Of a stretch of DNA of 64,000 bases, positions 10,780 through 57,341 are shown in pieces; the first letter of the stretch is position 1; each line of letters begins with the position of its first letter. Made by a program: the position numbers and the translations under genes. The notes below the pieces were generated by a model. That model saw nothing but the letters and a program-made list of their open reading frames with translations. It was not told the origin of the DNA and made no database searches. Source of the DNA: a virus (taxonomy: Duplodnaviria > Heunggongvirae > Uroviricota > Caudoviricetes); IMG/VR virus record IMGVR_UViG_2778261035_000005; one strand, 5' to 3'.

Positions 10780-12339
10780 CTAATCTCGTTTCAGAACTCC
10801 AAAATCGAATGCTCCATCAATAGGCAATACACCTTCTGCAAAGCCAGGTGTGGTGTCGATGATGTGTTTTCGCTCATAAGAGTGAGACAACAGGTATTTG
10901 TTGCTAATGTCAATGAAATCAGTGATAAAACACACGTTTGCCTGATTTTTTTTGGCTCGTAAGCCACGACCGACACGCTGTCTCATTTCAACTTCTGCTT
11001 TCCCACCACCAGCAAGAATGACCGCACCAACGCTTGGCACATCAACACCAACATCCAGAATAGTCGAGCCTATTAAAACATCTATTTCACCAGACGCTAA
11101 ACTATTCAGCTTTGCTTGCCTTGTCGTCTGGTTAGATTCCCCATAGATGAAATCAACTTTAAGACCTGACTCCTTCATCATCTCCATCAGGATTTGCCCG
11201 TGGCGTTTAAGACGAACCAGAGTCATGCAGTTGAGTGAATGTTGCTTATAAAGCAATGCCTCGCGCACAATGGCCTCGTTACGTCCCAAATTATACACGA
11301 TCCCCAACTGATAAGCCTTTTGGTAGGCGGTGCTCATACCAACTCTAAAATTGAGGTGTTTGTTGGCAAGTTCGGCCTTGATTCTGGCCTCGTCTGGCTT
11401 GTAGGCAACTTTATGATAAAGGAAGTACGGCTTTGCCAGAATGCCTCGATCAATCAGGTACTTTTCTGTGACTTTAATTTCAATTCGCCCGGCCACCGCC
11501 ATCAGGCGCATGTTGGCTTCCGTCGAATCCTTCATGAACGGCGTGGCTGTAAGCGCCAGACGATAGTCTGCGTTCACACATAATCTGGCGATGTCATAGA
11601 AATTTGAGCCTGAAGACTCATGCGCCTCTTCCAGAATAAGAAGAGAGACACTTGAAAGGAAGCGTTTCACCAACTCCCGACGTTTGAGGTGGTAGCTTTT
11701 CTTATCTGGTGTTGCATCGCGTGGTGGTTCTTCGAGGAAACTTGCAAGAGTTTGAACTGTAGCGACGTTGATATGTCGTGATACCTGGAACTCACCCGAG
11801 CCAATGACTCCAACCTTTTGGTCTTTTAACCACGGTTCGCCATTTTCGGCGCGGTAGTCGATGGATCTCTGGAAGTTTTCGGCCATTTGAAACATCAGAA
11901 CAGAGCGGGTTGTTAAAAATAATGTCATTCGACCGATACGTGCAGCTGCTTTGCAGGCAACGTTAGATTTCCCGCCACCAGTAGCGATCTGCGCAATCAT
12001 CATTCCCTCTCGAACCAGTGTTTCCACAGTCTGATCCTGATACGCATAATCAGGATTGTATGGGAATGGGTTAACCGCAGGATTTGGTTTACCAAGCGCC
12101 GGGGCTTTGTCTTTGCGGATATGAACACATTTGATGCCCGCCTTGTTCAAGTTCGCCGCTACAGGCTTGGCAAAGCCAGCAGGGAACGAGTTTCTACTCC
12201 AGTTGAACATCGTGCTTGTGCCCTTCCAGTCGCCAGTCTCGACTTCGTAGCTCAACATCTGTTGCACCATTTGCTTTACCTTGTCATCTGCGCCAGAAAT
12301 AAGCGCATTAACTGCGTTAGATACAATCCGAACAGTCAT
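10780..12339 (-). CDS. superfamily 2 DEAD/DEAH-type helicase
   Basis: Walker A ATGGGKS, DEAH-like LILEEAHE, motif III LTATP, motif VI QRVGRGLR. Confidence 0.8.
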   Translation of the reverse strand: MTVRIVSNAVNALISGADDKVKQMVQQMLSYEVETGDWKGTSTMFNWSRNSFPAGFAKPVAANLNKAGIKCVHIRKDKAPALGKPNPAVNPFPYNPDYAYQDQTVETLVREGMMIAQIATGGGKSNVACKAAARIGRMTLFLTTRSVLMFQMAENFQRSIDYRAENGEPWLKDQKVGVIGSGEFQVSRHINVATVQTLASFLEEPPRDATPDKKSYHLKRRELVKRFLSSVSLLILEEAHESSGSNFYDIARLCVNADYRLALTATPFMKDSTEANMRLMAVAGRIEIKVTEKYLIDRGILAKPYFLYHKVAYKPDEARIKAELANKHLNFRVGMSTAYQKAYQLGIVYNLGRNEAIVREALLYKQHSLNCMTLVRLKRHGQILMEMMKESGLKVDFIYGESNQTTRQAKLNSLASGEIDVLIGSTILDVGVDVPSVGAVILAGGGKAEVEMRQRVGRGLRAKKNQANVCFITDFIDISNKYLLSHSYERKHIIDTTPGFAEGVLPIDGAFDFGVLKRD

Positions 12340-12382
12340 AAACCTCTTTCCTTAGTGCCTTTTGTATGTTATTTGGCTATTA

Positions 12383-12404
12383 TAATAAGTAAGTGATTAC
12401 CTAG
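12383..12404. promoter_or_regulatory. TAAGTA-family motif in divergent promoter region
   Basis: taataagtaagtgattacctag between helicase (-) and ParB-like (+) genes. Confidence 0.4.
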
Positions 12405-13102
12405 TGGATTGTAGCAATAAAATGGATGTAAAAATCACGATTTTGCAGGTTGATGTTGCCAACCTTCGCCCGAATACCTGGAACACCAATTCGGTTGGTG
12501 CGCAGAATTTTGAAAAACTGAAAGGTTCTATCGAAAAATTGGGCTTTTTTAAGCCAATTTTGGCTCGTGAACTTGAAGATGGATTTTTTGAAATCCTCGG
12601 CGGCGAACATCGCTGGCGTGCTGCTATTGAGCAAGGAATTTCAACGGTTCCGGTGCTTTCTGTGGGCAAAATTAGCGATGTCGTAGCTAAACAGATGTCA
12701 CTGGTGGACAACGAGCGATACGGTGAAGACGACCAAATCGCATTGCAACGCTTCATTGAAGAAATTCAGTCAGAACTTGACTATCAACTGTCTGAAATCG
12801 CCCCGTATGACGACGAAATCTCGATGGTTTTAGCAAAAGAGGCGGCAATCGACCTTGAAGCACTGGAGGCGTTGTCTCGTGGTAGTGATGAGCCTGTCGA
12901 TACCGACAAACGAGAGAAAACCGAACGTGTGGGTGCGGAACATCAGACCATGCGCTTCAAAGTAACTTTCGATGCGTCAGATCGTGTTGCAGAAACCATA
13001 AAAAACATCATCAAAGAGCAGGCTATTAACACCGGTAATGAAATGGAGAACGCTGGTGAGGCTCTGGTGTGGCTGGTCGACTACTACAAGGAGCGTATGT
13101 AA
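12404..13102 (+). CDS. ParB/Srx-like nuclease-domain protein
   Basis: ParB N-terminal domain signature ...FEILGGEHRWRAA...; GTG 12404 or ATG 12422. Confidence 0.7.
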   Translation: MDCSNKMDVKITILQVDVANLRPNTWNTNSVGAQNFEKLKGSIEKLGFFKPILARELEDGFFEILGGEHRWRAAIEQGISTVPVLSVGKISDVVAKQMSLVDNERYGEDDQIALQRFIEEIQSELDYQLSEIAPYDDEISMVLAKEAAIDLEALEALSRGSDEPVDTDKREKTERVGAEHQTMRFKVTFDASDRVAETIKNIIKEQAINTGNEMENAGEALVWLVDYYKERM

Positions 13103-13770
13103 TGACCAAAAAGTTTGAAATCGTATATCGCGACCCGGCAGATCTTATTCCCTATGAGATGAATGCCAAAAAGCATGATGAACAGCAGATCCGAGATCTA
13201 GCCGCAGCCATTAAAAAGCGCGGATTTGACCAGCCAATTACGGTCGATAAGAACGACGTAATTATTACTGGCCACGGCCGCCGTGAGGCTGCAATTTTTG
13301 CTGGACTTGAGCGCGTACCGGTTATTGTTCGCGATGATCTCAGTGATGACGAGGTTCGTGCGAAGCGCCTTGAAGATAACCGACTTGCCAGCATTGATTA
13401 CGATGCAATTAAGCTACAGAAAGAGCTTGAGTCGCTTGTTCTGGACGATATCGAGGTTTTCGGCTTTGAAGAGCGTGAGTTGAATGTTCTCGTTGGCAGC
13501 ATGACAGAAGAAATGGACACCGACTCGCTAGTTATCGATCTTGGCGAAGAAACTAAACGACAGAAGGATGAACACACCGAGATCAGTCGTGAAGTTGCAG
13601 CGGAAGAAGTACGTGTTGTCGACGTATTGGGCTTTAAAACGCTTCCTGCTGGCTCTGCCATTGTTGTTGGTGATTTGCTTGCCCACATGGAAGAAATGAC
13701 GGGAGAAAGCGGGGTAGACGCATTTGTGGCATATGCGGAGAAGATCTCTTCCGGGGAGATGGCTGCATGA
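13102..13770 (+). CDS. second ParB/Srx-like domain protein
   Basis: ...VIITGHGRREAAIFAG... ParB-like motif; start overlaps previous stop (taATGa). Confidence 0.7.
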   Translation: MTKKFEIVYRDPADLIPYEMNAKKHDEQQIRDLAAAIKKRGFDQPITVDKNDVIITGHGRREAAIFAGLERVPVIVRDDLSDDEVRAKRLEDNRLASIDYDAIKLQKELESLVLDDIEVFGFEERELNVLVGSMTEEMDTDSLVIDLGEETKRQKDEHTEISREVAAEEVRVVDVLGFKTLPAGSAIVVGDLLAHMEEMTGESGVDAFVAYAEKISSGEMAA

Positions 13771-14432
13771 GCAAATACATCATCAACGTATCGTTTCAGA
13801 CACGCGTAAATAAAACCACGCGCACGTTGGAAATCGCTGAGTCGTTCGGGCTTGGCCTGGACGAAAAAGAGTGGACGCTTTACGACAATCTGGAGCTGGA
13901 AGTGAAGCAGGGCGATGTGGTGTACATCACCGGCCAATCCGGTTCCGGCAAATCCGTTGTGCTGCGCGAGTTGCAACGACAGATGAAGGATGAAGGGCTG
14001 TCTGTAGCCTCCATCGATGATTTTACCTTCGATAATGAGGTTAACGTCATCGATCAGTTGGGCAAAACGACCAGCGATGCGCTTGGGTTGTTATCTATGG
14101 CTGGTCTGAACGATGCATATCTGTTTGTTCGCAAGCCTTCTGAAATGTCAGACGGTCAGAAATATCGTCTCAAGATTGCCAAACTGATTGAGTCAGGCGC
14201 TAAAGTGTGGGCTGCTGACGAGTTCGGCGCTGTTCTCGACCGTGTAACCGCTCAGGTTGTGGCGTCTAACCTCCAGCGTGCCGCTCGAAAGGTTGGTGCG
14301 ACGGTAATGGTGGCGACGACTCACGAAGACCTGAAGAACGCGCTGCGCCCGGATATGCAGATCACCAAGCACTACAAAGAACGCGTGAAGGTGGAATATC
14401 ACAATGGTAGTCATGATGAGGTCCATTCATGA
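13767..14432 (+). CDS. ABC-type P-loop ATPase
   Basis: Walker A GQSGSGKS, ABC-signature-like MSDGQKYR, Walker B VWAADEF, H-loop ATTHE; overlaps neighbours by 4 nt. Confidence 0.7.
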   Translation: MSKYIINVSFQTRVNKTTRTLEIAESFGLGLDEKEWTLYDNLELEVKQGDVVYITGQSGSGKSVVLRELQRQMKDEGLSVASIDDFTFDNEVNVIDQLGKTTSDALGLLSMAGLNDAYLFVRKPSEMSDGQKYRLKIAKLIESGAKVWAADEFGAVLDRVTAQVVASNLQRAARKVGATVMVATTHEDLKNALRPDMQITKHYKERVKVEYHNGSHDEVHS

Positions 14433-43823: not shown

Positions 43824-44345
43824 TTATTCTTCGAACAATTTTTCGATAGATTTTGTAGGATAGAACAAAGAACGCTCGTTGTTACCAACCAGCTGGATAA
43901 AGCCTAAACTTTTATAAAACGCCTTGGCTTTGTCATTTAACGCCTCAACGAAAAGTCCATGAATGCCTACAGCAAGAGATGCATTGTACACAACGCGCAT
44001 TGCATGTGTTACAAGCATTGAGCCAAATCCTTGACCTTGAAGGGACTTGTCCAAAGCCAGCCTACCCAAAGTAACACTTGGAACATTCCGATAAGGTACC
44101 TTCTTTTGCTGGCTTCTTGAAGGTAAGGACTCCTTTTCAAAGCAGCTACCTGACAAAGTGTAATACCCTAACACTTTTGGTCTGCCTTCTTTCGTGCAAA
44201 GCACATAAGCGCGAAGAATTTTTCCCTCATGCTGCCTTTTTAAGTGGTTGGTTAAAAAGGCATTTAGTGATTCTTCACCGCAATCAAAACCATTCAAATC
44301 ATAATCTTTCTCTCCAGAGAAAATTTCTATCTTTATATTATCCAC
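43824..44345 (-). CDS. GNAT-family acetyltransferase toxin (TacT/AtaT-like)
   Basis: GNAT motif GRLALDKSLQGQGFGSMLV; immediately downstream of DUF1778-type antitoxin. Confidence 0.75.
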   Translation of the reverse strand: MDNIKIEIFSGEKDYDLNGFDCGEESLNAFLTNHLKRQHEGKILRAYVLCTKEGRPKVLGYYTLSGSCFEKESLPSRSQQKKVPYRNVPSVTLGRLALDKSLQGQGFGSMLVTHAMRVVYNASLAVGIHGLFVEALNDKAKAFYKSLGFIQLVGNNERSLFYPTKSIEKLFEE

Positions 44346-44352
44346 GAGTAAA

Positions 44353-44622
44353 CTACTCCATGCTTTTCAGACGATCAGCAGCTCGTTTCAGCTTGTCGTT
44401 CGGTGCCGGAGGATTGCTTATAGCGTCCATAACCAGATTCCAGGATTCTTCATTCAGAACTAGTCTACGGTGTTGCTCTATAACTTTCACGGCACGTTCA
44501 GATGCACTGCTAACCATAAACTGAGTAATGCTCTGGTTAGACATTGCGGCAGCTTCCTCGATGATGCTTTTATCGTCATCGGTTAATCTCAAATCGATGC
44601 GCTGCTTTTTTAGTGCTGACAT
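44353..44622 (-). CDS. DUF1778/RHH antitoxin (TacA/AtaR-like)
   Basis: MSALKKQRIDLRLTDDDKSIIEEAA... characteristic N-terminus; antitoxin-first order. Confidence 0.75.
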   Translation of the reverse strand: MSALKKQRIDLRLTDDDKSIIEEAAAMSNQSITQFMVSSASERAVKVIEQHRRLVLNEESWNLVMDAISNPPAPNDKLKRAADRLKSME

Positions 44623-45997: not shown

Positions 45998-46019
45998 TAA
46001 TTAAAGTGGAGTGATAATT

Positions 46020-46772
46020 ATGCATTCGTTAGTATTTGCATTTAAAAACATACTCAAGAATGTTATAAACATACTAGGGATGTTAAATATTTTTTTGTCT
46101 GTGAGGGTGAGGAGAAAAGATATAAAAGATAAATTAAAGGAACTTAACAAAGAAAAAGAACAATTAAAAAGCGAAGAAATTATTATTGATTTATACAAGA
46201 AAAAACTCGCATCTAGCAAGGGGAAAGCTAATGATAAAATCAAAGGAAAAATAATTCACTATATTATTGCTAGAGAGTTGGGGAATGATCCTGATAATGA
46301 AGATTTGCGACATAATCTTTTTACAAAGATAAAAGAATCAGAAGAACAGGTTGAAGTTCTGGTTCATCAAAGAGAAGTAAGTGAGCAGGCGAACAAAAAA
46401 GAAACGGTTGTCAATTTATTTTTATTGTATGAAAAAAATAAATTGTTTAAAGCTAAGGGGTTGGCTGTGTTTCTTATAGTTATAAACTTAATTATAGTTG
46501 CGACTCTCGATCTTCCAGCTTGGTCATTGATTATAAGTTTTTTTATTCTCTCTTTGATTATGTTGAAAGATCAGATACTTACTATTCGTGTCTCTAAAGG
46601 ATATTTTGGCACAAGTGCGTATGAAGCGGTTCAATTGCTTAAATTCATCAGAGAAAATTCAGACAAATTTGACTCAGATGATAATGACGGTAGCCCACGA
46701 CGGATATTGAATCCGAAGGGAACAACAAAAAAATCAGACAACCTATTCGATAAAGGGTGGCAAAATGTTTGA
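46020..46772 (+). CDS. AT-rich gene: membrane protein (about 250 aa)
   Basis: N-terminal TM, K/E-rich coiled-coil segment, two more TM helices; composition visibly more AT-rich than flanks. Confidence 0.55.
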   Translation: MHSLVFAFKNILKNVINILGMLNIFLSVRVRRKDIKDKLKELNKEKEQLKSEEIIIDLYKKKLASSKGKANDKIKGKIIHYIIARELGNDPDNEDLRHNLFTKIKESEEQVEVLVHQREVSEQANKKETVVNLFLLYEKNKLFKAKGLAVFLIVINLIIVATLDLPAWSLIISFFILSLIMLKDQILTIRVSKGYFGTSAYEAVQLLKFIRENSDKFDSDDNDGSPRRILNPKGTTKKSDNLFDKGWQNV

Positions 46773-47187
46773 CCTTGACGCCATCACTAAGTTCTTAAAT
46801 CAGTGTTTTGATCTACTTTTGCTCAAGCAGCCTTTAAGAACTGTTTTCGGAATACTGATTGGTTTCATTATTTTTGTTTTTGTTTACACGTTTAGGTTTG
46901 CGATAGCTCAAGATTTTTATGAAATAGATGGCGTGCATTACGCTGCATGTTTCGTCATCGGTGTTTTAGTTGTTCACACAAGAACATTTTTTGACGTTAT
47001 CAAGGGCACCGCAGTTGATGAAGAAATAGATAGTATGATCAGAGTTATTACGAAGCAGCCACACCTATCTAACCATCAAAAAAACATAATGATTGCTGAA
47101 ATACTTCAAAAAGAAATTGCAGCCATAAGTCAAAAGAGATTGGATAAAGTTGCACAAGAAATAACGGAGAAAAAGACAACTGATTAA
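46765..47187 (+). CDS. AT-rich gene: small membrane protein with two TM helices
   Basis: Overlaps stop of previous gene; hydrophobic segments LRTVFGILIGFIIFVFVYTF and VHYAACFVIGVLVV. Confidence 0.55.
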   Translation: MFDLDAITKFLNQCFDLLLLKQPLRTVFGILIGFIIFVFVYTFRFAIAQDFYEIDGVHYAACFVIGVLVVHTRTFFDVIKGTAVDEEIDSMIRVITKQPHLSNHQKNIMIAEILQKEIAAISQKRLDKVAQEITEKKTTD

Positions 47188-49573: not shown

Positions 49574-50755
49574 ATGAGCCTTTATGTTATATCAACATTT
49601 AGGTTGGTAACAATATTGCCTGTTAAAAGTGGAATTATCGTGAGCGAGCTGAAAGAGTTAATTACCGAATTAGATTTTGAACAATGGTTGGACACTGAAG
49701 GTATCGTTTATCGACGTGGAGGCGTGAGTACTCGCGGTCGTGAAGTGAATATCAAGGAGTGTCCGGTATGCGGCAGCTCCAACTGGAAGGTATATTTCAA
49801 TCTGACCAGTGGCGTCGGTAAATGCTTCGCTGGTGATCATCCCGAAGAGATTCAGTTCAATAAGCTGGTCTTCCTCAAGCACTACAGCGGCAAATCACGA
49901 CGACAGTTCGAGGAATATGTGCAGAACGCCCTTCTTTCCCAGGGGTGGGCACCAAAGAAAGAAGAGCTAGTGCTTGCAAGCACAGTCGAGTTAGAGGGGC
50001 CAGTTGCACTCCCTCGTCATTACGAACTTCCTATAGATGGCCGTCTTCCAGACTATCTGGTTGAACGAAATATATCGCCTGAAATGGCAAAGTATTTTGA
50101 CCTACGATACTGCGTCGAAGGTAAGCACGCCTATGTAGATCCGTATACAGATCAGGTTAAAGGACAGATATTCGATATGCGAATACTGATACCGGTTTAC
50201 GATCTGGATGGGGTAATGAAGACATTTCAGGGACGAGACATTACCGGTACAGCAGAACGCCGCTACCTCTTTCCTATGCAGCTTCCAGCTTCAGGTAAGT
50301 TTCTCTACAACGGCTATAATGCAGTCGGCAAACAGACTGTAGTTGTCTGTGAGGGGGCGTTCGATGTTATGGGGGTTAAACGAGCTATTTTTGACGAAGA
50401 AACATTACGTGATTACGTGGAACCAATAGGAACGTTCGGGATGCATCTATCTGGTAACACCACTCAGGATGCAGAAGATCAGTTAGGCGCGTTCCTGACG
50501 CTCAAGGCGCGTGGGTTACGTAATGTGATCATGATGTGGGATAGTGAAAAGCAAGCTATACGAAACACTATGGCCGCAGCCAGGCGACTGACCAGTATCG
50601 GTCTTAATGTGAAAATTGCATGTTTGGGCGAGGAAGGACTCGACCCCGGCGATGCGACCCCGGGGCAGATTATCAAAGCCTACTATTGCGCAAAACCTTA
50701 CTCACGACAGCTTGAACTTTTAAGCAAGGTAAAAGGCATAGCAGCATTAGTTTGA
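49574..50755 (+). CDS. DnaG-type primase (zinc ribbon + TOPRIM)
   Basis: CPVCGSSNW...CFAGDH zinc ribbon; TOPRIM VVVCEGAFD and MMWDSEKQ; start uncertain (49502 GTG / 49574 ATG). Confidence 0.75.
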   Translation: MSLYVISTFRLVTILPVKSGIIVSELKELITELDFEQWLDTEGIVYRRGGVSTRGREVNIKECPVCGSSNWKVYFNLTSGVGKCFAGDHPEEIQFNKLVFLKHYSGKSRRQFEEYVQNALLSQGWAPKKEELVLASTVELEGPVALPRHYELPIDGRLPDYLVERNISPEMAKYFDLRYCVEGKHAYVDPYTDQVKGQIFDMRILIPVYDLDGVMKTFQGRDITGTAERRYLFPMQLPASGKFLYNGYNAVGKQTVVVCEGAFDVMGVKRAIFDEETLRDYVEPIGTFGMHLSGNTTQDAEDQLGAFLTLKARGLRNVIMMWDSEKQAIRNTMAAARRLTSIGLNVKIACLGEEGLDPGDATPGQIIKAYYCAKPYSRQLELLSKVKGIAALV

Positions 50756-51892
50756 ACCAGTATTAGTCACGTACACATTGACCGAAAATGATTTAACTTC
50801 TGTGTTGAAGTTGTCAGTCATTACCGCGAGGTAGGCATTCTTGGTATCTCTGAATTGCTTCAGTATGATTTGAACGTTATCGGTGCAAACAAACGAGGTA
50901 GCCAGATTGCCTCCTTTCTCTGAAAAATCCTTCAGGAAGGTGCAGTCAACTTTGCCATCATTAGCGGTGAAGGTAGCATCATCACCCTGCCAGGTAAATG
51001 TAGCGTTAACGCCCTTATCAATGGATTTAGCAATAAGTCGCTGGGTGGCGGATTTTGTTTTGGCTTTGGAAGCCGGCGCTCGATATTTGCCGCTTTCTTT
51101 CAGTTCTGCAATGTAATCACAGCCATTTTTATCTTCTTTATCACAAGCAGCCTGATAAAGCTCAGCTGCTTTTTTATAGTCTTTTTTAACCCCTTCACCA
51201 TACTCATACATAATGCCAAGATTTGTCATGGCATCGGCGTTTCCGAGTTCAGCAGCTTTTTTATACCACTTAATTGCTTCGGCATCGTTGCGTTTAACAC
51301 CTAAACCGTCATCGTATAAGGTGCCTAATGCGAACATGCCATCTGAACTACCTTGATCCGCCGCTTTTTTGTAATAAGTAAAAGCTTTTTTATAACTCTT
51401 TTGTACACCTTTACCATATTGGTAATACGCACCAAGAAGGTAGCTAGCTTTAACATACCCGGCATCAGAGGCTAGATTGAAGTATTTAATGGCGAGCGCA
51501 TGATCTACTTTACCAAGCATCCCCTTTTGATAAATAGCACCAAGATTGTTATAGGCTCTACCTTCACGAGCATCTCCCGCAAGTTTGTAGTACTCAACTG
51601 CTTTATTTAAGTCTTTATCTACACCCTCGCCAAATGTGTACATAACCCCAAGTGCATAATATGCTACTTTGTCTCCCTTTTCTGCAGCGAGATCAATCCA
51701 CTTCTTGGCCTCAACTACATCCTTATCAAAACCATTGATACCATCAAAATAATTTGTCCCTAACTCACTTTGTGCTGCGGTATCCCCTGCGGTAGCGGCT
51801 TCTATCAGCGTTTGTTTATTGTCTGCGTTAACGAATCCAGAGCTAAAAAGCAAAGTTAATGCCAGCAACGATGAAGATTTTATGTATTTCAT
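50747..51892 (-). CDS. secreted Sel1-repeat protein
   Basis: Signal peptide MKYIKSSSLLALTLLFSSGFVNA, then ~8 Sel1-type repeats and a ~110-aa C-terminal domain. Confidence 0.8.
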   Translation of the reverse strand: MKYIKSSSLLALTLLFSSGFVNADNKQTLIEAATAGDTAAQSELGTNYFDGINGFDKDVVEAKKWIDLAAEKGDKVAYYALGVMYTFGEGVDKDLNKAVEYYKLAGDAREGRAYNNLGAIYQKGMLGKVDHALAIKYFNLASDAGYVKASYLLGAYYQYGKGVQKSYKKAFTYYKKAADQGSSDGMFALGTLYDDGLGVKRNDAEAIKWYKKAAELGNADAMTNLGIMYEYGEGVKKDYKKAAELYQAACDKEDKNGCDYIAELKESGKYRAPASKAKTKSATQRLIAKSIDKGVNATFTWQGDDATFTANDGKVDCTFLKDFSEKGGNLATSFVCTDNVQIILKQFRDTKNAYLAVMTDNFNTEVKSFSVNVYVTNTGSN

Positions 51893-52125
51893 ATTTTTTG
51901 TTCTGTTGATATAGGATGAACAGTTTAGACGCGGCAAGTGTCAAGTGTGCGAAAAATGGTACTTAAATTTAGTTAATATGTCAGCTTTGTTGATTTAGTT
52001 TATGGTCGGTAAAGTTACTAGGAAACTAATAACCATAAGAAATAGTACGTCATTTAATTATTGTGGCACTGCTCGTGTTTTGATTAACTAATACCTGCGA
52101 TAAATATAAATAAAGGGAAGCCAAC

Positions 52126-52539
52126 ATGAGCAAAAATAAGCTGATTTTAACAGGAGCTTTATTGTCTTTGTTTGCTTTAGTGGGGTGTAAGCCTACAGAC
52201 GAGAAGGCTATTGCTCTGGGCCAACAAGCAATTGCGGATGATATGAAAGATCCCACGTCGGTGATGTTTAGGAAAGATAAGTTTGTCAGGACTGATCATG
52301 ACGATGGGAGTGTGACAGGCTTTGTGTGCGGAGAATTGAACGCCAAAAATGGCTTTGGTGCATACGTGGGCTATCACTCATATGTTGTTGAACTCGAAAT
52401 GAAGCCAAAGGGCATGTTTTCGAAAGGGGTGGTATACAAAATCCTATCGAAGTCGTTGGCACCTAATGATCCTCATGACTTACAGCGTTATAAGCAGGTC
52501 TACAGAAAGATGTGCAACAGTGAGGCTGTAGCTCATTAA
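52126..52539 (+). CDS. lipoprotein
   Basis: Lipobox LVGC in MSKNKLILTGALLSLFALVGC; RBS aaggga. Confidence 0.65.
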   Translation: MSKNKLILTGALLSLFALVGCKPTDEKAIALGQQAIADDMKDPTSVMFRKDKFVRTDHDDGSVTGFVCGELNAKNGFGAYVGYHSYVVELEMKPKGMFSKGVVYKILSKSLAPNDPHDLQRYKQVYRKMCNSEAVAH

Positions 52540-52664
52540 TGGTGAATGCCGGGCAGACTATAAGCCCGGCATCTTCGTATAGGGAACTATTGCGCCTAAA
52601 ATGATAAGTAGATACATACTTAGTTTTTTGTAAGAATACTTTCATCTGTTAGCTAGGAGTTGGT

Positions 52665-53441
52665 ATGAAAGACGAAATTCAGAAATTGGCCTGTGACATC
52701 ATTGATAAAACAGGTTTAGAAATCAGCGAGGGCAGTCGACTAGACATCATTGGAAAGGCCGTCAATACAGCAATGAATCATATCGCTGCTCGTATGGACG
52801 AGATCCCGCTACCAGGGTTGCCTTATCTGAAAGTTGAGTTACACGTATGGGGCGAACCTTCTTGTGCACGGCGTTCTGCATTAGTTGTTTTTATTAGCAA
52901 AGAAAACCCGCTCAGTCTTAAAGTGCAGGTTGGAGCATGGCTTGATGGCAGAGTGATCTACACAAATACCGTTTTTTGTCTTTCAAACGACGAAACTATT
53001 GAAGCGGCCATTCAAGAAGCAGTTCTAGCAATGCGCAGCAGCGGTTTGATGAAGAATAACTACGAAGAGTACTTGCGTTCGATAAGTGGTGAAAAGACAT
53101 TATCTCTGAAAGCAGATTTCGTTACCCCGAAAAATCTGTTGGAAGTTTTGATTAATAAAGGGGCTAATAGTGCCGTAAATGTAATCAGAGAGAGTGAATA
53201 CGCGTCTCTTTGGGATATGTGCAAAAGCCAGTTGGATCTTGTGCATATCGTTGTTGATGCGGGGAAGGCTTGTGATGGCGTAATGGCGGAATTTGCTGGG
53301 AAGATGGTCAGGATTGCTAACGAATTACCGATGATTAAGCAAGAGGCTAAATCATACGCCACCAATCATGTCACAGAGCTTCTTGCCCCTTATCGCTTAG
53401 AAAGCGATCAGCGCAAGATGATTAGCTGGGGAAGTTGGTAA
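52665..53441 (+). CDS. hypothetical protein (258 aa)
   Basis: ORF with RBS aggag. Confidence 0.5.
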   Translation: MKDEIQKLACDIIDKTGLEISEGSRLDIIGKAVNTAMNHIAARMDEIPLPGLPYLKVELHVWGEPSCARRSALVVFISKENPLSLKVQVGAWLDGRVIYTNTVFCLSNDETIEAAIQEAVLAMRSSGLMKNNYEEYLRSISGEKTLSLKADFVTPKNLLEVLINKGANSAVNVIRESEYASLWDMCKSQLDLVHIVVDAGKACDGVMAEFAGKMVRIANELPMIKQEAKSYATNHVTELLAPYRLESDQRKMISWGSW

Positions 53442-56888: not shown

Positions 56889-56963
56889 GATGGTGTAGCT
56901 CAGCGGTAGAGCAGTTGGCTGTTAACCAACTGGTCGGTGGTTCGAATCCACCCACCATCGCCA
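56889..56963 (+). tRNA. tRNA-Asn (anticodon GTT)
   Basis: Cloverleaf read by hand: acceptor gatggtg/caccatc, anticodon loop ctGTTaa, T-loop ggtggttcgaatccacc, 3' CCA. Confidence 0.85.
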
Positions 56964-56965
56964 AT

Positions 56966-57041
56966 GCCGGTTTAGCTCAGTTGGTAGAGCACCTGCCTTG
57001 TAAGCAGGATGTCAGCGGTTCGAATCCGTTAACCGGCACCA
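56966..57041 (+). tRNA. tRNA-Thr (anticodon TGT)
   Basis: acceptor gccggtt/aaccggc, anticodon stem cctgc/gcagg, loop ctTGTaa, T-loop ttcgaat, 3' CCA. Confidence 0.85.
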
Positions 57042-57254
57042 ACACAACAGGAAAGAGCATTGAGAACCGCCGAGACTGCCCTGTTTGAAGCGTAAGTCCG
57101 TGCAAACGTCATACAGTGCTCTTTTCGTTGTGGTGAATGCGGCTAAGCGCACGCGGGGAAATGGTTATATTGATCCTTTGTGATGACTATTGGCTCCGTC
57201 CACGGTGGATAACCAGCCAAAGGACACCGGGAAGCACCCGGCACCACAACAATT

Positions 57255-57341
57255 GGAGAGTAGGGAGCATGGTGCTCAAGCGGTCTTGAAAACCGTCCCA
57301 TTGCGCAAGCGATGATGGTTCGATTCCATTACTCTCCGCCA
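57255..57341 (+). tRNA. tRNA-Ser-like (anticodon TGA, long variable arm), D-arm atypical
   Basis: acceptor ggagagt/actctcc, anticodon loop ctTGAaa, variable-arm hairpin cattgc-gcaa-gcgatg, T-loop ggttcgattcc, 3' CCA. Confidence 0.6.

What the first reader, a model, noticed from the sequence alone, without database searches (positions are those of the whole stretch)
50747..52539. Secreted Sel1-repeat protein and adjacent lipoprotein as envelope-targeted morons
A signal-peptide protein with ~8 Sel1 repeats and an extra C-terminal domain is encoded antisense to the replication genes, with a divergently oriented lipoprotein next to it. Sel1 proteins mediate protein-protein interactions in the periplasm; in a prophage they are candidates for lysogenic conversion or receptor interference.
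Basis: partly seen in the sequence, partly recalled or inferred. Interest (0 to 1): 0.5.

Follow-up and report, generated by a model that had tools for sequence, protein, structure and literature searches.

The report
Two envelope-protein morons in a phage-plasmid
A plasmid-like prophage of E. coli carries two optional add-on genes, one for a periplasmic Sel1-repeat protein and one for an outer-membrane lipoprotein; both are real, conserved and typical phage cargo, but nobody has tested what they do.

Summary
The window is a ~110-kb SSU5-like E. coli phage-plasmid, 100% identical to pWP4-S18-ESBL-07_2. The minus-strand gene at 50747-51892 encodes a 381-aa protein that starts at the ATG, not the upstream TTG. 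It has a Sec signal peptide, six Sel1 repeats (not ~8) plus two half-repeat caps, a short linker, and an orphan ~95-aa all-beta domain with two conserved cysteines. The plus-strand gene at 52126-52539 encodes a 137-aa lipoprotein (lipobox LVGC, Lys at +2). It has a confidently predicted cystatin/NTF2-like fold and belongs to a large family with no Pfam model.

The two genes fill a cargo slot between the primase and the next replication gene. In relatives this slot is empty, or holds the Sel1 gene alone, the lipoprotein alone, both, or unrelated genes. They are therefore independent morons, not a pair. About 21% of E. coli relatives carry both.

Both families recur in other temperate phages at classic moron positions. 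Both parts of the Sel1 gene are under purifying selection (dN/dS about 0.1). Its repeat array has been swapped by recombination onto a constant C-terminal domain.

Function is untested. My best inference is that these are periplasmic binder/inhibitor proteins that protect the lysogen's envelope. This is ordinary-to-moderately interesting: new members of a known kind.

The parts
50756..52595 (.). Accessory block (about 1.84 kb) relative to the empty-slot relatives. It lies between the primase stop codon and the conserved leader of the phrog_4248 gene.
   Evidence: Alignment with phage Cyrano. Megablast covers only the flanks in 4 phages. The full block is present in 50 of 349 plasmid hits and 53 of 252 E. 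coli genomes. GC is 41.2% against 47.4% and 44.3% in the flanks.
50747..51892 (-). Gene for the 381-aa exported Sel1-repeat protein (RefSeq WP_097292385.1, 'tetratricopeptide repeat protein'). Its stop codon overlaps the primase 3' end by 9 nt.
   Evidence: dN/dS against other alleles is 0.09-0.16.
51824..51892 (-). Sec signal peptide, residues 1-23 (MKYIKSSSLLALTLLFSSGFVNA, cleavage before DNK).
   Evidence: Read from the sequence. Equivalent N-termini occur in homologues.
51077..51823 (-). Sel1 array, residues 24-272: an N-terminal cap helix, six 36-aa repeats (39-254), and a C-terminal cap helix pair carrying a Cys-x7-Cys motif.
   Evidence: Pfam PF08238, 174 bits, 6 stretches. DNA direct repeats spaced 216 nt. 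PDB sequence matches to Sel1 proteins 6ok3 and EsiB 4bwr. This is the variable, recombining part of the gene (dS 1.67).
51035..51076 (-). Lys/Ser/Ala/Thr-rich linker, residues 273-286.
   Evidence: Poorly conserved (29-64% identity). pLDDT below 50 in the model.
50750..51034 (-). Orphan C-terminal all-beta domain, residues 287-381, with two invariant cysteines. This is the constant part of the protein.
   Evidence: No Pfam or PDB match. 97-100% identical among E. coli alleles whose Sel1 arrays are only 53-88% identical. dS is 0.10 here against 1.67 in the array. The AlphaFold model is poor (pLDDT 57) and shows only beta strands.
51893..52125 (.). AT-rich (32.6% GC) divergent intergenic region, presumed to hold the promoters of both genes.
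   Evidence: One weak sigma-70-like match points toward the Sel1 gene (51984-51956, minus strand), but the number of matches is no higher than in shuffled sequence. Promoters are not demonstrated.
52126..52539 (+). Gene for the 137-aa lipoprotein (WP_021512314.1). Lipobox LVGC, Cys21, Lys at +2. The mature domain has a cystatin/NTF2-like alpha-beta4-alpha fold with a conserved Cys68...Cys130 pair.
52546..52572 (+). A 9-bp GC-rich hairpin starting 6 nt after the lipoprotein stop codon. It is a possible terminator, but the U-tract is weak.
   Evidence: RNA fold -21.6 kcal/mol, z = -2.9. It lies inside the block that is missing from Cyrano.
49640..50755 (+). Left flank: DNA primase of the replication module.
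52665..53441 (+). Right flank: conserved replication-module gene of unknown function (phrog_4248).

Best explanation
These are two independent accessory ('moron') genes parked in a recombinational cargo slot of an SSU5-like E. coli phage-plasmid, between the primase gene and the next replication-module gene. Each encodes a cell-envelope protein.

(1) The first is a Sec-exported periplasmic protein. It joins a six-repeat Sel1 array, which is a protein-binding solenoid, through a flexible linker to a constant ~95-aa disulfide-containing beta domain.

(2) The second is an outer-membrane-anchored lipoprotein facing the periplasm. It has a cystatin/NTF2-like domain from a very large uncharacterised family.

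Inferred mechanism, not shown: both act as stoichiometric binders or inhibitors in the periplasm of the lysogen. They would neutralise envelope-active proteins arriving from outside, such as tail-associated cell-wall hydrolases or injection proteins of superinfecting phages, type VI effectors, or similar toxins. Alternatively they could restrain host cell-wall hydrolases. On this reading the exchangeable Sel1 array supplies target specificity, and the constant C-terminal domain supplies a common anchoring or effector function.

Shown: gene reality, export signals, domain architecture, presence/absence polymorphism, independence of the two genes, recurrence in temperate phages, purifying selection, and array swapping.
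Inferred: location in vivo, expression in lysogens, and the binding-and-protection role.
For: Element identity: 100% match to pWP4-S18-ESBL-07_2, with terminase, portal, capsid, tape measure, J-like tail tip, ParA/ParB, DnaB helicase, primase and ligase.

Slot states in relatives:
- empty: Cyrano and most E. coli relatives
- Sel1 gene only: Enterobacter p4-20710 and an E. coli 5-repeat allele
- lipoprotein only: Salmonella and Cronobacter
- both: 53 of 252 E. coli genomes
- a phrog_22938 protein: S. Typhi pHCM2 and E. coli p503440_100
- a DUF4145/phrog_1305 protein: Citrobacter

The Sel1 family is phage cargo elsewhere:
- after the tail-fibre genes at the ends of lambdoid prophages (Leclercia)
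- in an E. kobei prophage region and beside P2-like tail genes
- within plasmids, its C-terminal domain lies beside a gene annotated as primase in most of the 40 sampled records, out of 91 hits on ~100-115-kb non-mobilizable plasmids

The lipoprotein family:
- 1346 clusters at E<=1e-3, no Pfam model
- sits between ogr and int in P2-like SEN5, and between tail genes K and I in HK97-like Fraca
- its relatives are fused to peptidoglycan-binding SPOR or SH3 domains
- the fold is that of classical enzyme inhibitors (cystatin, latexin) and of periplasmic VirB8/TraM domains

Selection: dN/dS is 0.09-0.16 in both parts of the Sel1 gene. dS is 1.67 in the array against 0.10 in the C-terminal domain of the same gene pair, which indicates array replacement by recombination. 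Alleles with 5, 6 and 7 repeats share one C-terminal domain.

Precedents for periplasmic Sel1 proteins acting as direct inhibitors:
- P. aeruginosa IltA inhibits the lytic transglycosylase MltF (PMC10746161)
- K. pneumoniae Sel1E, a Sel1 array with an uncharacterised C-terminal extension, is the immunity protein to the type VI toxin VgrG4 (PMC7108748)
Against: There is no experimental or expression evidence, and no target has been identified.
- PADLOC and NCBIfam give nothing specific.
- No effector gene is adjacent in the window.
- The Sel1 similarity to any characterised protein is generic repeat similarity that aligns in several registers.
- The C-terminal domain could not be modelled (pLDDT 57), so its role is a guess.
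- Presence of the block is not linked to the tail-tip allele, which gives no support to masking of the element's own receptor.
- Promoters were not detected above background.
Confidence: 0.45

Rival explanations
1. Lysogenic conversion aimed at the animal host. The Sel1 protein would act like EsiB, Hcp or LpnE-type Sel1 proteins (binding secretory IgA, modulating immune cells, adhesion or invasion), and the lipoprotein would act like Bor/Iss-type serum-resistance lipoproteins.
For: EsiB of E. coli CFT073 (4bwr, E=1.6e-65) and HcpC (1ouv) are among the best PDB sequence matches. Many carrier plasmids come from clinical or animal E. coli.
Against: The similarity is confined to generic Sel1 repeats. 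EsiB lacks the C-terminal domain. A Sec signal alone delivers a protein only to the periplasm. The Sel1/C-terminal-domain family also occurs in Pantoea, Leclercia and Pseudenterobacter. The lipoprotein family occurs in phages and plasmids of Paracoccus, Pseudomonas, Acinetobacter and Sphingopyxis. The lipoprotein matched only PHROG families of unknown function.
Confidence: 0.15
2. The two products form a functional pair: an inhibitor/anti-inhibitor module like P. aeruginosa IltA (periplasmic Sel1 protein) and LiiA (outer-membrane lipoprotein), tuning a host cell-wall hydrolase. This could affect lysis timing or beta-lactam tolerance of the lysogen.
For: The genes are arranged divergently around a shared spacer in 55 plasmids. 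There is a published precedent of a Sel1 protein plus a lipoprotein controlling MltF (PMC10746161). Relatives of the lipoprotein carry peptidoglycan-binding domains.
Against: Each gene occurs alone in the same slot. Prophage and chromosomal Sel1 homologues have no lipoprotein neighbour. LiiA is a 262-aa protein with a helical N-terminal domain and an OmpA-like C-terminal domain, unlike this 137-aa cystatin-like protein. IltA has 3 repeats and no beta domain.
Confidence: 0.1
3. The Sel1 protein is an orphan immunity protein against a periplasm-acting interbacterial toxin (type VI phospholipase or VgrG-type effector, or a contact-dependent toxin), carried by phages as a portable shield. This is a specific sub-case of the best explanation.
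For: Sel1E precedent (PMC7108748). PA5087 (5jkp) is cited in that paper as the template used to model Sel1E, and it is a weaker PDB match to this protein. The Pseudenterobacter homologue sits between orphan CdiA-type toxin modules. Two Sel1 genes lie in tandem after the tail fibres in one prophage, resembling immunity-gene arrays. The recognition array is swappable.
Against: No effector is adjacent in the window or in most other contexts. A pattern-based scan of one genome per species found the C-terminal domain in only 5 Enterobacterales species and in no Klebsiella. The similarity to PA5087 is much weaker than to generic Sel1 proteins.
Confidence: 0.15
4. Neutral hitch-hikers or decaying cargo with no current function.
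For: Roughly 80% of E. coli relatives lack the block. IS elements interrupt or flank it in some plasmids (IS1 in E. fergusonii, IS100, ISEcp1, IS1414). Truncated copies exist (P0002, P0004, P0006, P0008).
Against: dN/dS is 0.09-0.16 across highly diverged alleles. Intact reading frames, export signals and cysteines are conserved from E. coli to Pantoea. The lipoprotein family has invariant motif residues over 59 aligned diverse sequences drawn from 1346 hits.
Confidence: 0.05

Closest known systems
Phage morons encoding exported proteins (the concept reviewed in 'The moron comes of age', PMC3594210; the examples lambda bor/lom, phi80/N15 cor, T5 llp and HK97 gp15 are from my own knowledge)
   Same: Optional genes in otherwise conserved temperate-phage modules. 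The Sel1 gene has its own orientation. The block has lower GC. The products go to the envelope. Homologues sit beside tail or tail-fibre genes, or near att/int, in other phages.
   Different: No sequence relationship to any characterised exclusion or conversion protein; all PHROG matches are of 'unknown function'. Here the insertion site lies in the replication module of a plasmid-prophage. Expression in lysogens has not been shown.
K. pneumoniae Sel1E, the immunity protein to the type VI toxin VgrG4 (PMC7108748)
   Same: A Sel1-like repeat array followed by a C-terminal extension that sequence searches could not assign. It acts as a protective binder.
   Different: Sel1E is encoded next to its toxin inside a type VI locus, and its localisation predictions were inconclusive. 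No homology between its C-terminal extension and this beta domain was found; the genome scan returned no Klebsiella hit. The Sel1E sequence itself was not available to me for a direct comparison.
[quoted passage not shown]
   Same: A periplasmic Sel1 protein and an outer-membrane lipoprotein acting on cell-wall metabolism. It shows that periplasmic Sel1 proteins can be direct enzyme inhibitors.
   Different: IltA has 3 repeats and no beta domain. LiiA is 262 aa with a helical N-terminal domain and an OmpA-like C-terminal domain. The genes are chromosomal and unlinked. Here the two genes occur independently of each other.
EsiB (E. coli CFT073 c5321, PDB 4bwr) and Helicobacter HcpB/HcpC secreted Sel1 proteins
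   Same: Signal peptide plus tandem 36-aa Sel1 repeats. The last helix pair carries a Cys pair as in Hcp proteins.
   Different: They have no C-terminal beta domain, different repeat numbers, and are not phage-borne. The similarity is repeat-generic.
Cystatin/latexin inhibitor fold and VirB8/TraM/DotI periplasmic NTF2-like domains
   Different: About 10% identity. The cystatin QxVxG motif is absent from the sequence. The family has its own signature (DPxS ... CGxxNAKNxxGxYxG ... C). No functional link has been shown.

Membership tests
Sel1-like repeat proteins (Pfam PF08238) | Tandem ~36-aa Sel1 repeats scoring above the curated cut-off | tested here: met
   174.2 bits against a cut-off of 30.7, with six stretches. 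The 108-nt periodicity is visible in the DNA.
phrog_8741 (phage protein family, unknown function) | End-to-end match to the family profile, including the C-terminal domain | tested here: met
   E=9.6e-209. Residues 16-396 of the long ORF match profile positions 1-380 of 380.
Sec-exported periplasmic protein | N-terminal signal peptide with a signal peptidase I site | tested here: inconclusive
   An n/h/c region and a VNA|D site are evident and conserved in homologues. No signal-peptide predictor or experiment was available.
Bacterial lipoproteins | Lipobox [LVI][ASTVI][GAS]C at the end of a signal peptide | tested here: met
   ALVGC, with Cys21. A Cys at the aligned position is present in most aligned family members. 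Acylation itself is not testable here.
phrog_2320 and related lipoprotein family (no Pfam model) | The conserved core motif DPxS ... CGxxNAKNxxGxYxG ... C | tested here: met
   phrog_2320 E=1.9e-39. 1346 relatives. Invariant or nearly invariant D42, P43, S45, C68, G69, N72, K74, N75, G78, Y80, G82 and C130.
Moron (as defined in PMC3594210) | Present in some and absent from other closely related phage genomes | tested here: met
   Absent from Cyrano, CMS-2020a and PhiR41_1, and from about 80% of related E. coli plasmids.
Moron (as defined in PMC3594210) | Independent transcription unit with its own promoter and terminator | tested here: inconclusive
   The Sel1 gene has the opposite orientation, there is an AT-rich 233-bp spacer, and a hairpin follows the lipoprotein gene. 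However, promoter-like sites do not exceed the shuffled expectation. In lipoprotein-only relatives the gene sits 33-57 nt downstream of primase on the same strand.
Moron (as defined in PMC3594210) | Expressed from the repressed prophage | not testable with these tools
   Needs transcriptomics of lysogens.
Type VI immunity proteins of the Sel1 type (Sel1E; PA5086-5088) | Encoded adjacent to a cognate effector and protective against it | tested here: not met
   The window has no effector, VgrG, PAAR or phospholipase gene near the block. Protection itself is not testable.
IltA/LiiA system | LiiA-like lipoprotein architecture (helical N-terminal domain plus OmpA-like C-terminal domain, 262 aa) partnered with a 3-repeat Sel1 protein | tested here: not met
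   The lipoprotein is 137 aa with a single alpha-beta4-alpha domain. The Sel1 protein has 6 repeats plus a beta domain. The LiiA/IltA description comes from PMC10746161. Direct sequence comparison was not possible.
Known anti-phage defence systems (PADLOC-DB) | A significant match to a defence-protein model | tested here: not met
   The only match is a spurious 21.9-bit hit to PtuA with no qualifying stretch. The lipoprotein has none.
Cystatins | Cystatin fold plus the QxVxG inhibitory loop motif | tested here: not met

The most novel reading that the evidence does not exclude
The Sel1/beta-domain protein and the cystatin-like lipoprotein could be the founding members of two uncharacterised classes of phage-borne periplasmic 'envelope immunity' proteins. 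On this reading the Sel1 protein is modular: an exchangeable recognition array of 5, 6 or 7 repeats on a constant anchor or effector domain. The lipoprotein would be an inhibitor scaffold working at the peptidoglycan layer. Each would block tail-associated cell-wall hydrolases of superinfecting phages or incoming antibacterial effectors. The primase-proximal slot of SSU5-like phage-plasmids would then be a dedicated exchange site for such modules.
Probability: 0.2. Interest if true: 0.6.

Novelty: new member of a known kind. Interest (0 to 1): 0.33.

Why it matters
SSU5-like phage-plasmids are common in clinical and livestock E. coli, Salmonella (pHCM2), Enterobacter and Citrobacter, and they carry resistance genes. 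Knowing where they accept cargo, and what that cargo does, bears on lysogen fitness and on phage therapy.

The lipoprotein belongs to a very large family (more than 1300 clusters at 50% identity) with a confident structure model but no Pfam model and no known function. The Sel1 protein carries an orphan domain and shows allele swapping of its binding array.

If either protein turns out to be a periplasmic inhibitor of phage or toxin proteins, it would give a function to a widespread 'hypothetical' phage gene family. If not, this is simply a well-delimited example of ordinary phage cargo.

Tried and rejected
- Word-index homologue searches with the C-terminal domain and with the lipoprotein returned only 4 close hits each. 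The exhaustive representative search was needed for the lipoprotein.
- The afdb50 fold library was unavailable. BFVD gave only unnamed or uncharacterised proteins.
- Pfam at E<=10 and a PDB profile search for the C-terminal domain found nothing beyond the last Sel1 helix.
- NCBIfam gave only sub-threshold generic Sel1 hits: MerG, AlgK, MotX and ExoR, all far below their cut-offs. PADLOC gave nothing.
- Profile-profile comparison of the C-terminal domain against the lipoprotein family showed no relationship (probability 0.3%).
- A search for flanking direct or inverted repeats, or transposon ends, at the block boundaries found only short two-copy matches, which I judge to be chance.
- Rfam found only two of the three downstream tRNAs; ARAGORN found all three.
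- Linkage between the block and the tail-tip (J C-terminus) allele: none. The same 96-99% identical allele occurs with and without the block.
- Literature searches for SSU5 plus Sel1, for the RefSeq accessions, and for phrog_8741 found nothing. A recent phage-plasmid survey does not mention these genes.
- I considered and rejected: the pair being an operon or obligate two-gene system; cystatin membership; IltA/LiiA membership.


Full report
**What the window is.** The 3.5 kb around the finding is 100% identical to E. coli plasmid pWP4-S18-ESBL-07_2 (110,167 bp). It is 92-99.5% identical to about 50 other ~110-kb non-mobilizable E. coli plasmids, including pECOH89. The annotated record shows terminase, portal, major capsid, tape measure, minor tail proteins, a J-like tail-tip protein and a second large tail protein. 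It also shows ParA/ParB-type partition genes, a GNAT/DUF1778 toxin-antitoxin pair, a DnaB-like helicase, a primase, an ATP-dependent ligase and three tRNAs. Its nearest sequenced phages are Escherichia phages Cyrano, CMS-2020a and PhiR41_1. The literature calls this group SSU5-like phage-plasmids, or 'phage-like plasmids' (PMC3999498, PMC7969092).

**Checking the observation: the Sel1 gene.** Both ORFs exist as described. The minus-strand ORF matches Pfam Sel1 at E=2e-52 in six stretches. It matches PHROG family phrog_8741 over the whole profile at E=1e-208. The PHROG match starts at residue 16 of the TTG-started ORF. RefSeq and all homologues start at the ATG at 51892, so the protein is 381 aa.

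By inspection the protein reads as follows:
- residues 1-23: signal peptide MKYIKSSSLLALTLLFSSGFVNA|DNK
- an N-terminal cap helix
- six 36-aa Sel1 repeats (39-254)
- a half-repeat cap with a Cys-x7-Cys motif, as in Helicobacter Hcp proteins
- a Lys/Ser/Thr-rich linker (273-286)
- a ~95-aa C-terminal region (287-381)

The C-terminal region matches nothing in Pfam even at E<=10. A profile search of PDB sequences matches only the preceding helix pair.

**Checking the observation: the lipoprotein gene.** The plus-strand ORF encodes 137 aa with a textbook lipobox (L-V-G-C, Cys21) and Lys at +2. By the E. coli +2 sorting rule, which is established knowledge, this predicts an outer-membrane lipoprotein. 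It matches phrog_2320 (E=2e-39) and six further PHROG families, all of unknown function. The two genes diverge from a 233-bp spacer of 32.6% GC.

**It is an insertion in a cargo slot.** Megablast against phages covers only the flanks. In Cyrano the primase gene is followed within ~75 nt by the phrog_4248 gene. The extra block is about 50756-52595 (1.84 kb). Its GC is 41.2%, against 47.4% and 44.3% in the flanks. The Sel1 gene's last codons overlap the primase stop by 9 nt, and Enterobacter relatives keep the same arrangement.

Sampling of 455 related plasmids, plus inspection of representatives, shows at least six states of this one slot:
- empty (most E. coli, many Enterobacter and Salmonella)
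- Sel1 gene alone (Enterobacter/Citrobacter p4-20710 type, and an E. coli element with a 5-repeat allele)
- lipoprotein gene alone (Salmonella pZ1322HSL0038-2, Cronobacter pCsaC105731a)
- both genes
- a 350-aa phrog_22938 protein (S. Typhi pHCM2, E. coli p503440_100)
- a DUF4145/phrog_1305 protein (Citrobacter)

Fifty-three of 252 E. coli genomes that carry the flanks have the two-gene block. The two genes are therefore independent modules that happen to share a hotspot. They are not an operon or an obligate pair. No terminal repeats or mobile-element ends flank the block. Exchange by homologous recombination through the conserved flanks is the simplest route; this is an inference.

**The Sel1/beta-domain family.** Full-length relatives at 46-98% identity are confined to Enterobacterales. 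A pattern scan of one genome per species found the C-terminal domain in only five species: Escherichia whittamii, Pantoea, two Leclercia and Pseudenterobacter.

In the plasmid collection it occurs in 91 records on ~100-115-kb non-mobilizable plasmids. In most of the 40 sampled records the match lies beside a gene annotated as primase. Elsewhere it is again mostly phage cargo:
- directly after the tail-fibre genes at the end of lambdoid prophages, once followed by a second Sel1 gene lacking the beta domain
- after tail-fibre genes in Leclercia
- in an Enterobacter kobei prophage region, truncated by an IS, and beside P2-like tail genes
- as a small islet with an IS3 remnant between ompW and yciA in Escherichia
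- between orphan CdiA-type toxin modules in Pseudenterobacter

No lipoprotein homologue accompanies the chromosomal copies that I searched directly (L006, L007).

**Mosaic evolution of the Sel1 gene.** Among E. coli phage-plasmid alleles the C-terminal domain is 97-100% identical, while the Sel1 array is only 53-96% identical and has 5, 6 or 7 repeats. Codon analysis shows this is mosaicism, not relaxed or positive selection. Against the 7-repeat allele of pTLYA-2, dS is 1.67 in the array but 0.10 in the C-terminal domain, and dN/dS is 0.13 and 0.09 respectively. The array has thus been replaced by recombination on a constant C-terminal domain. Both parts are under purifying selection, so the gene is functional.

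**The lipoprotein family.** An exhaustive HMMER search found 1346 cluster representatives at E<=1e-3. Most are 105-145 aa. Fifty-nine aligned members share D42, P43, S45, C68, G69, N72, K74, N75, G78, Y80, G82 and C130. The two cysteines suggest a periplasmic disulfide. None of the members tested matches a Pfam model for this domain. Some longer relatives add a C-terminal SPOR or SH3 domain, both of which bind peptidoglycan, and phage annotations mention SPOR and PG_binding_1.

Homologues sit at moron positions in unrelated temperate phages: between ogr and int in P2-like Salmonella phage SEN5 (48% identity), and between tail genes K and I in HK97-like phage Fraca.

**Transcription signals.** A 9-bp GC-rich hairpin lies 6 nt after the lipoprotein stop (-21.6 kcal/mol, z=-2.9), but it lacks a good U-tract. 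Promoter-like hexamers do not exceed the shuffled expectation. In lipoprotein-only relatives the gene lies 33-57 nt downstream of primase on the same strand. There it is probably read with the replication genes. Those genes must be at least partly active in a plasmid-prophage; this is an inference.

**Mechanism.** Nothing here measures function. Export signals, a protein-binding solenoid and an inhibitor-type scaffold all point to periplasmic binding proteins. The literature supplies direct precedents for periplasmic Sel1 proteins acting as stoichiometric inhibitors:
- IltA of P. aeruginosa binds and inhibits the lytic transglycosylase MltF, and is itself bound by the outer-membrane lipoprotein LiiA (PMC10746161).
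- K. pneumoniae Sel1E, a Sel1 array with an unassignable C-terminal extension, is the immunity protein against the type VI toxin VgrG4 (PMC7108748).

Four further points fit a protective role: recurrence of both families as temperate-phage cargo next to tail genes, their presence in environmental as well as clinical bacteria, the swappable recognition array, and the peptidoglycan-binding fusions of the lipoprotein family. Taken together, the most likely role is protection of the lysogen's envelope by binding incoming envelope-active proteins, either from superinfecting phages or from interbacterial toxins. Control of host cell-wall hydrolases is a close alternative. I put about 0.9 on the structural and evolutionary description and about 0.3 on this mechanism.

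Membership in the IltA/LiiA, Sel1E/Tli, cystatin or known-defence families is not supported (see the membership table). An animal-host virulence role remains possible, but only generic repeat similarity to EsiB and HcpC supports it. The tail-tip allele is the same in elements with and without the block, so there is no sign of co-evolution with the element's own receptor specificity.

**Novelty and verdict.** Both genes are already in RefSeq and PHROGs as hypothetical or unknown proteins, and no paper mentions them. The finding is a correct reading of two ordinary but uncharacterised morons.

What this analysis adds:
- the multi-state cargo slot
- the independence of the two genes
- the array-swapping mosaic on a constant orphan domain
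- a confident fold for a very large lipoprotein family that has no Pfam model

Interest is moderate to low unless a protective function is demonstrated.

Noticed in passing
L011:3015-4067 (S. Typhi pHCM2), L013:3002-4054 (E. coli p503440_100), L012:3045-3764 (Citrobacter pRHB20-C15_2): The same primase-proximal slot holds unrelated minus-strand cargo in other SSU5-like elements. One is a 350-aa protein with no Pfam domain (phrog_22938, unknown function). Another is a 239-aa DUF4145/phrog_1305 'DNA binding protein'. The slot is a general cargo hotspot.
   Followed up: partly
window 43824-44622 (minus strand): A GNAT acetyltransferase plus DUF1778 gene pair lies between the tail genes and the ParA-like partition gene, also antisense to its neighbours. 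This is a TacT/TacA-type toxin-antitoxin arrangement; that assignment rests on my own knowledge.
   Followed up: no
window 56889-57341: A cluster of three tRNA genes (Asn-GTT, Thr-TGT, Ser-TGA) lies downstream of the ligase. It is conserved in phage Cyrano.
   Followed up: no
L021:10047-10982: In a lambdoid prophage, the Sel1/beta-domain gene that follows the tail fibres is followed in turn by a second phrog_8741-like Sel1 gene. That gene matches only the repeat part of the profile (positions 62-270) and lacks the beta domain. It is a tandem array of Sel1 genes.
   Followed up: partly
plasmids NZ_CP035843.1, NZ_CP057094.1/NZ_CP056962.1, NZ_CP115378.1, NZ_JBUBIR010000005.1: IS elements (IS100, IS1B, ISEcp1, IS1414) are inserted in or beside the block in several relatives. 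In E. fergusonii an IS1 leaves a 97-aa remnant of the C-terminal domain (P0002). ISEcp1 is the usual carrier of blaCTX-M-15 in this plasmid group.
   Followed up: no
NZ_CP030078.1 72951-73229 (Enterobacter p4-20710): Elements that carry only the Sel1 gene in the slot still encode a distant paralogue (30% identity) of the lipoprotein family elsewhere on the same phage-plasmid.
   Followed up: no
window 46001-47187: This is the lowest-GC kilobase of the window (32%). It covers two small ORFs (46011-46772 and 46765-47187) just upstream of the replication genes. The second looks membrane-spanning. It may be another acquired segment.
   Followed up: no
L006:5768-7128 and 11174-13894 (Pseudenterobacter timonensis): The chromosomal Sel1/beta-domain homologue is embedded among orphan filamentous-haemagglutinin/PT-VENN toxin fragments, with small downstream ORFs. 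This looks like a contact-dependent-inhibition orphan island, with a NERD-domain gene and IS remnants nearby.
   Followed up: partly
window 50782-50792 and 52595-52605: An 11-nt near-repeat (CCGAAAATGAT / CCTAAAATGAT) has its right copy at the right junction of the block. Its left copy lies 27 nt inside the left junction. It is probably chance, given the many similar two-copy matches.
   Followed up: partly
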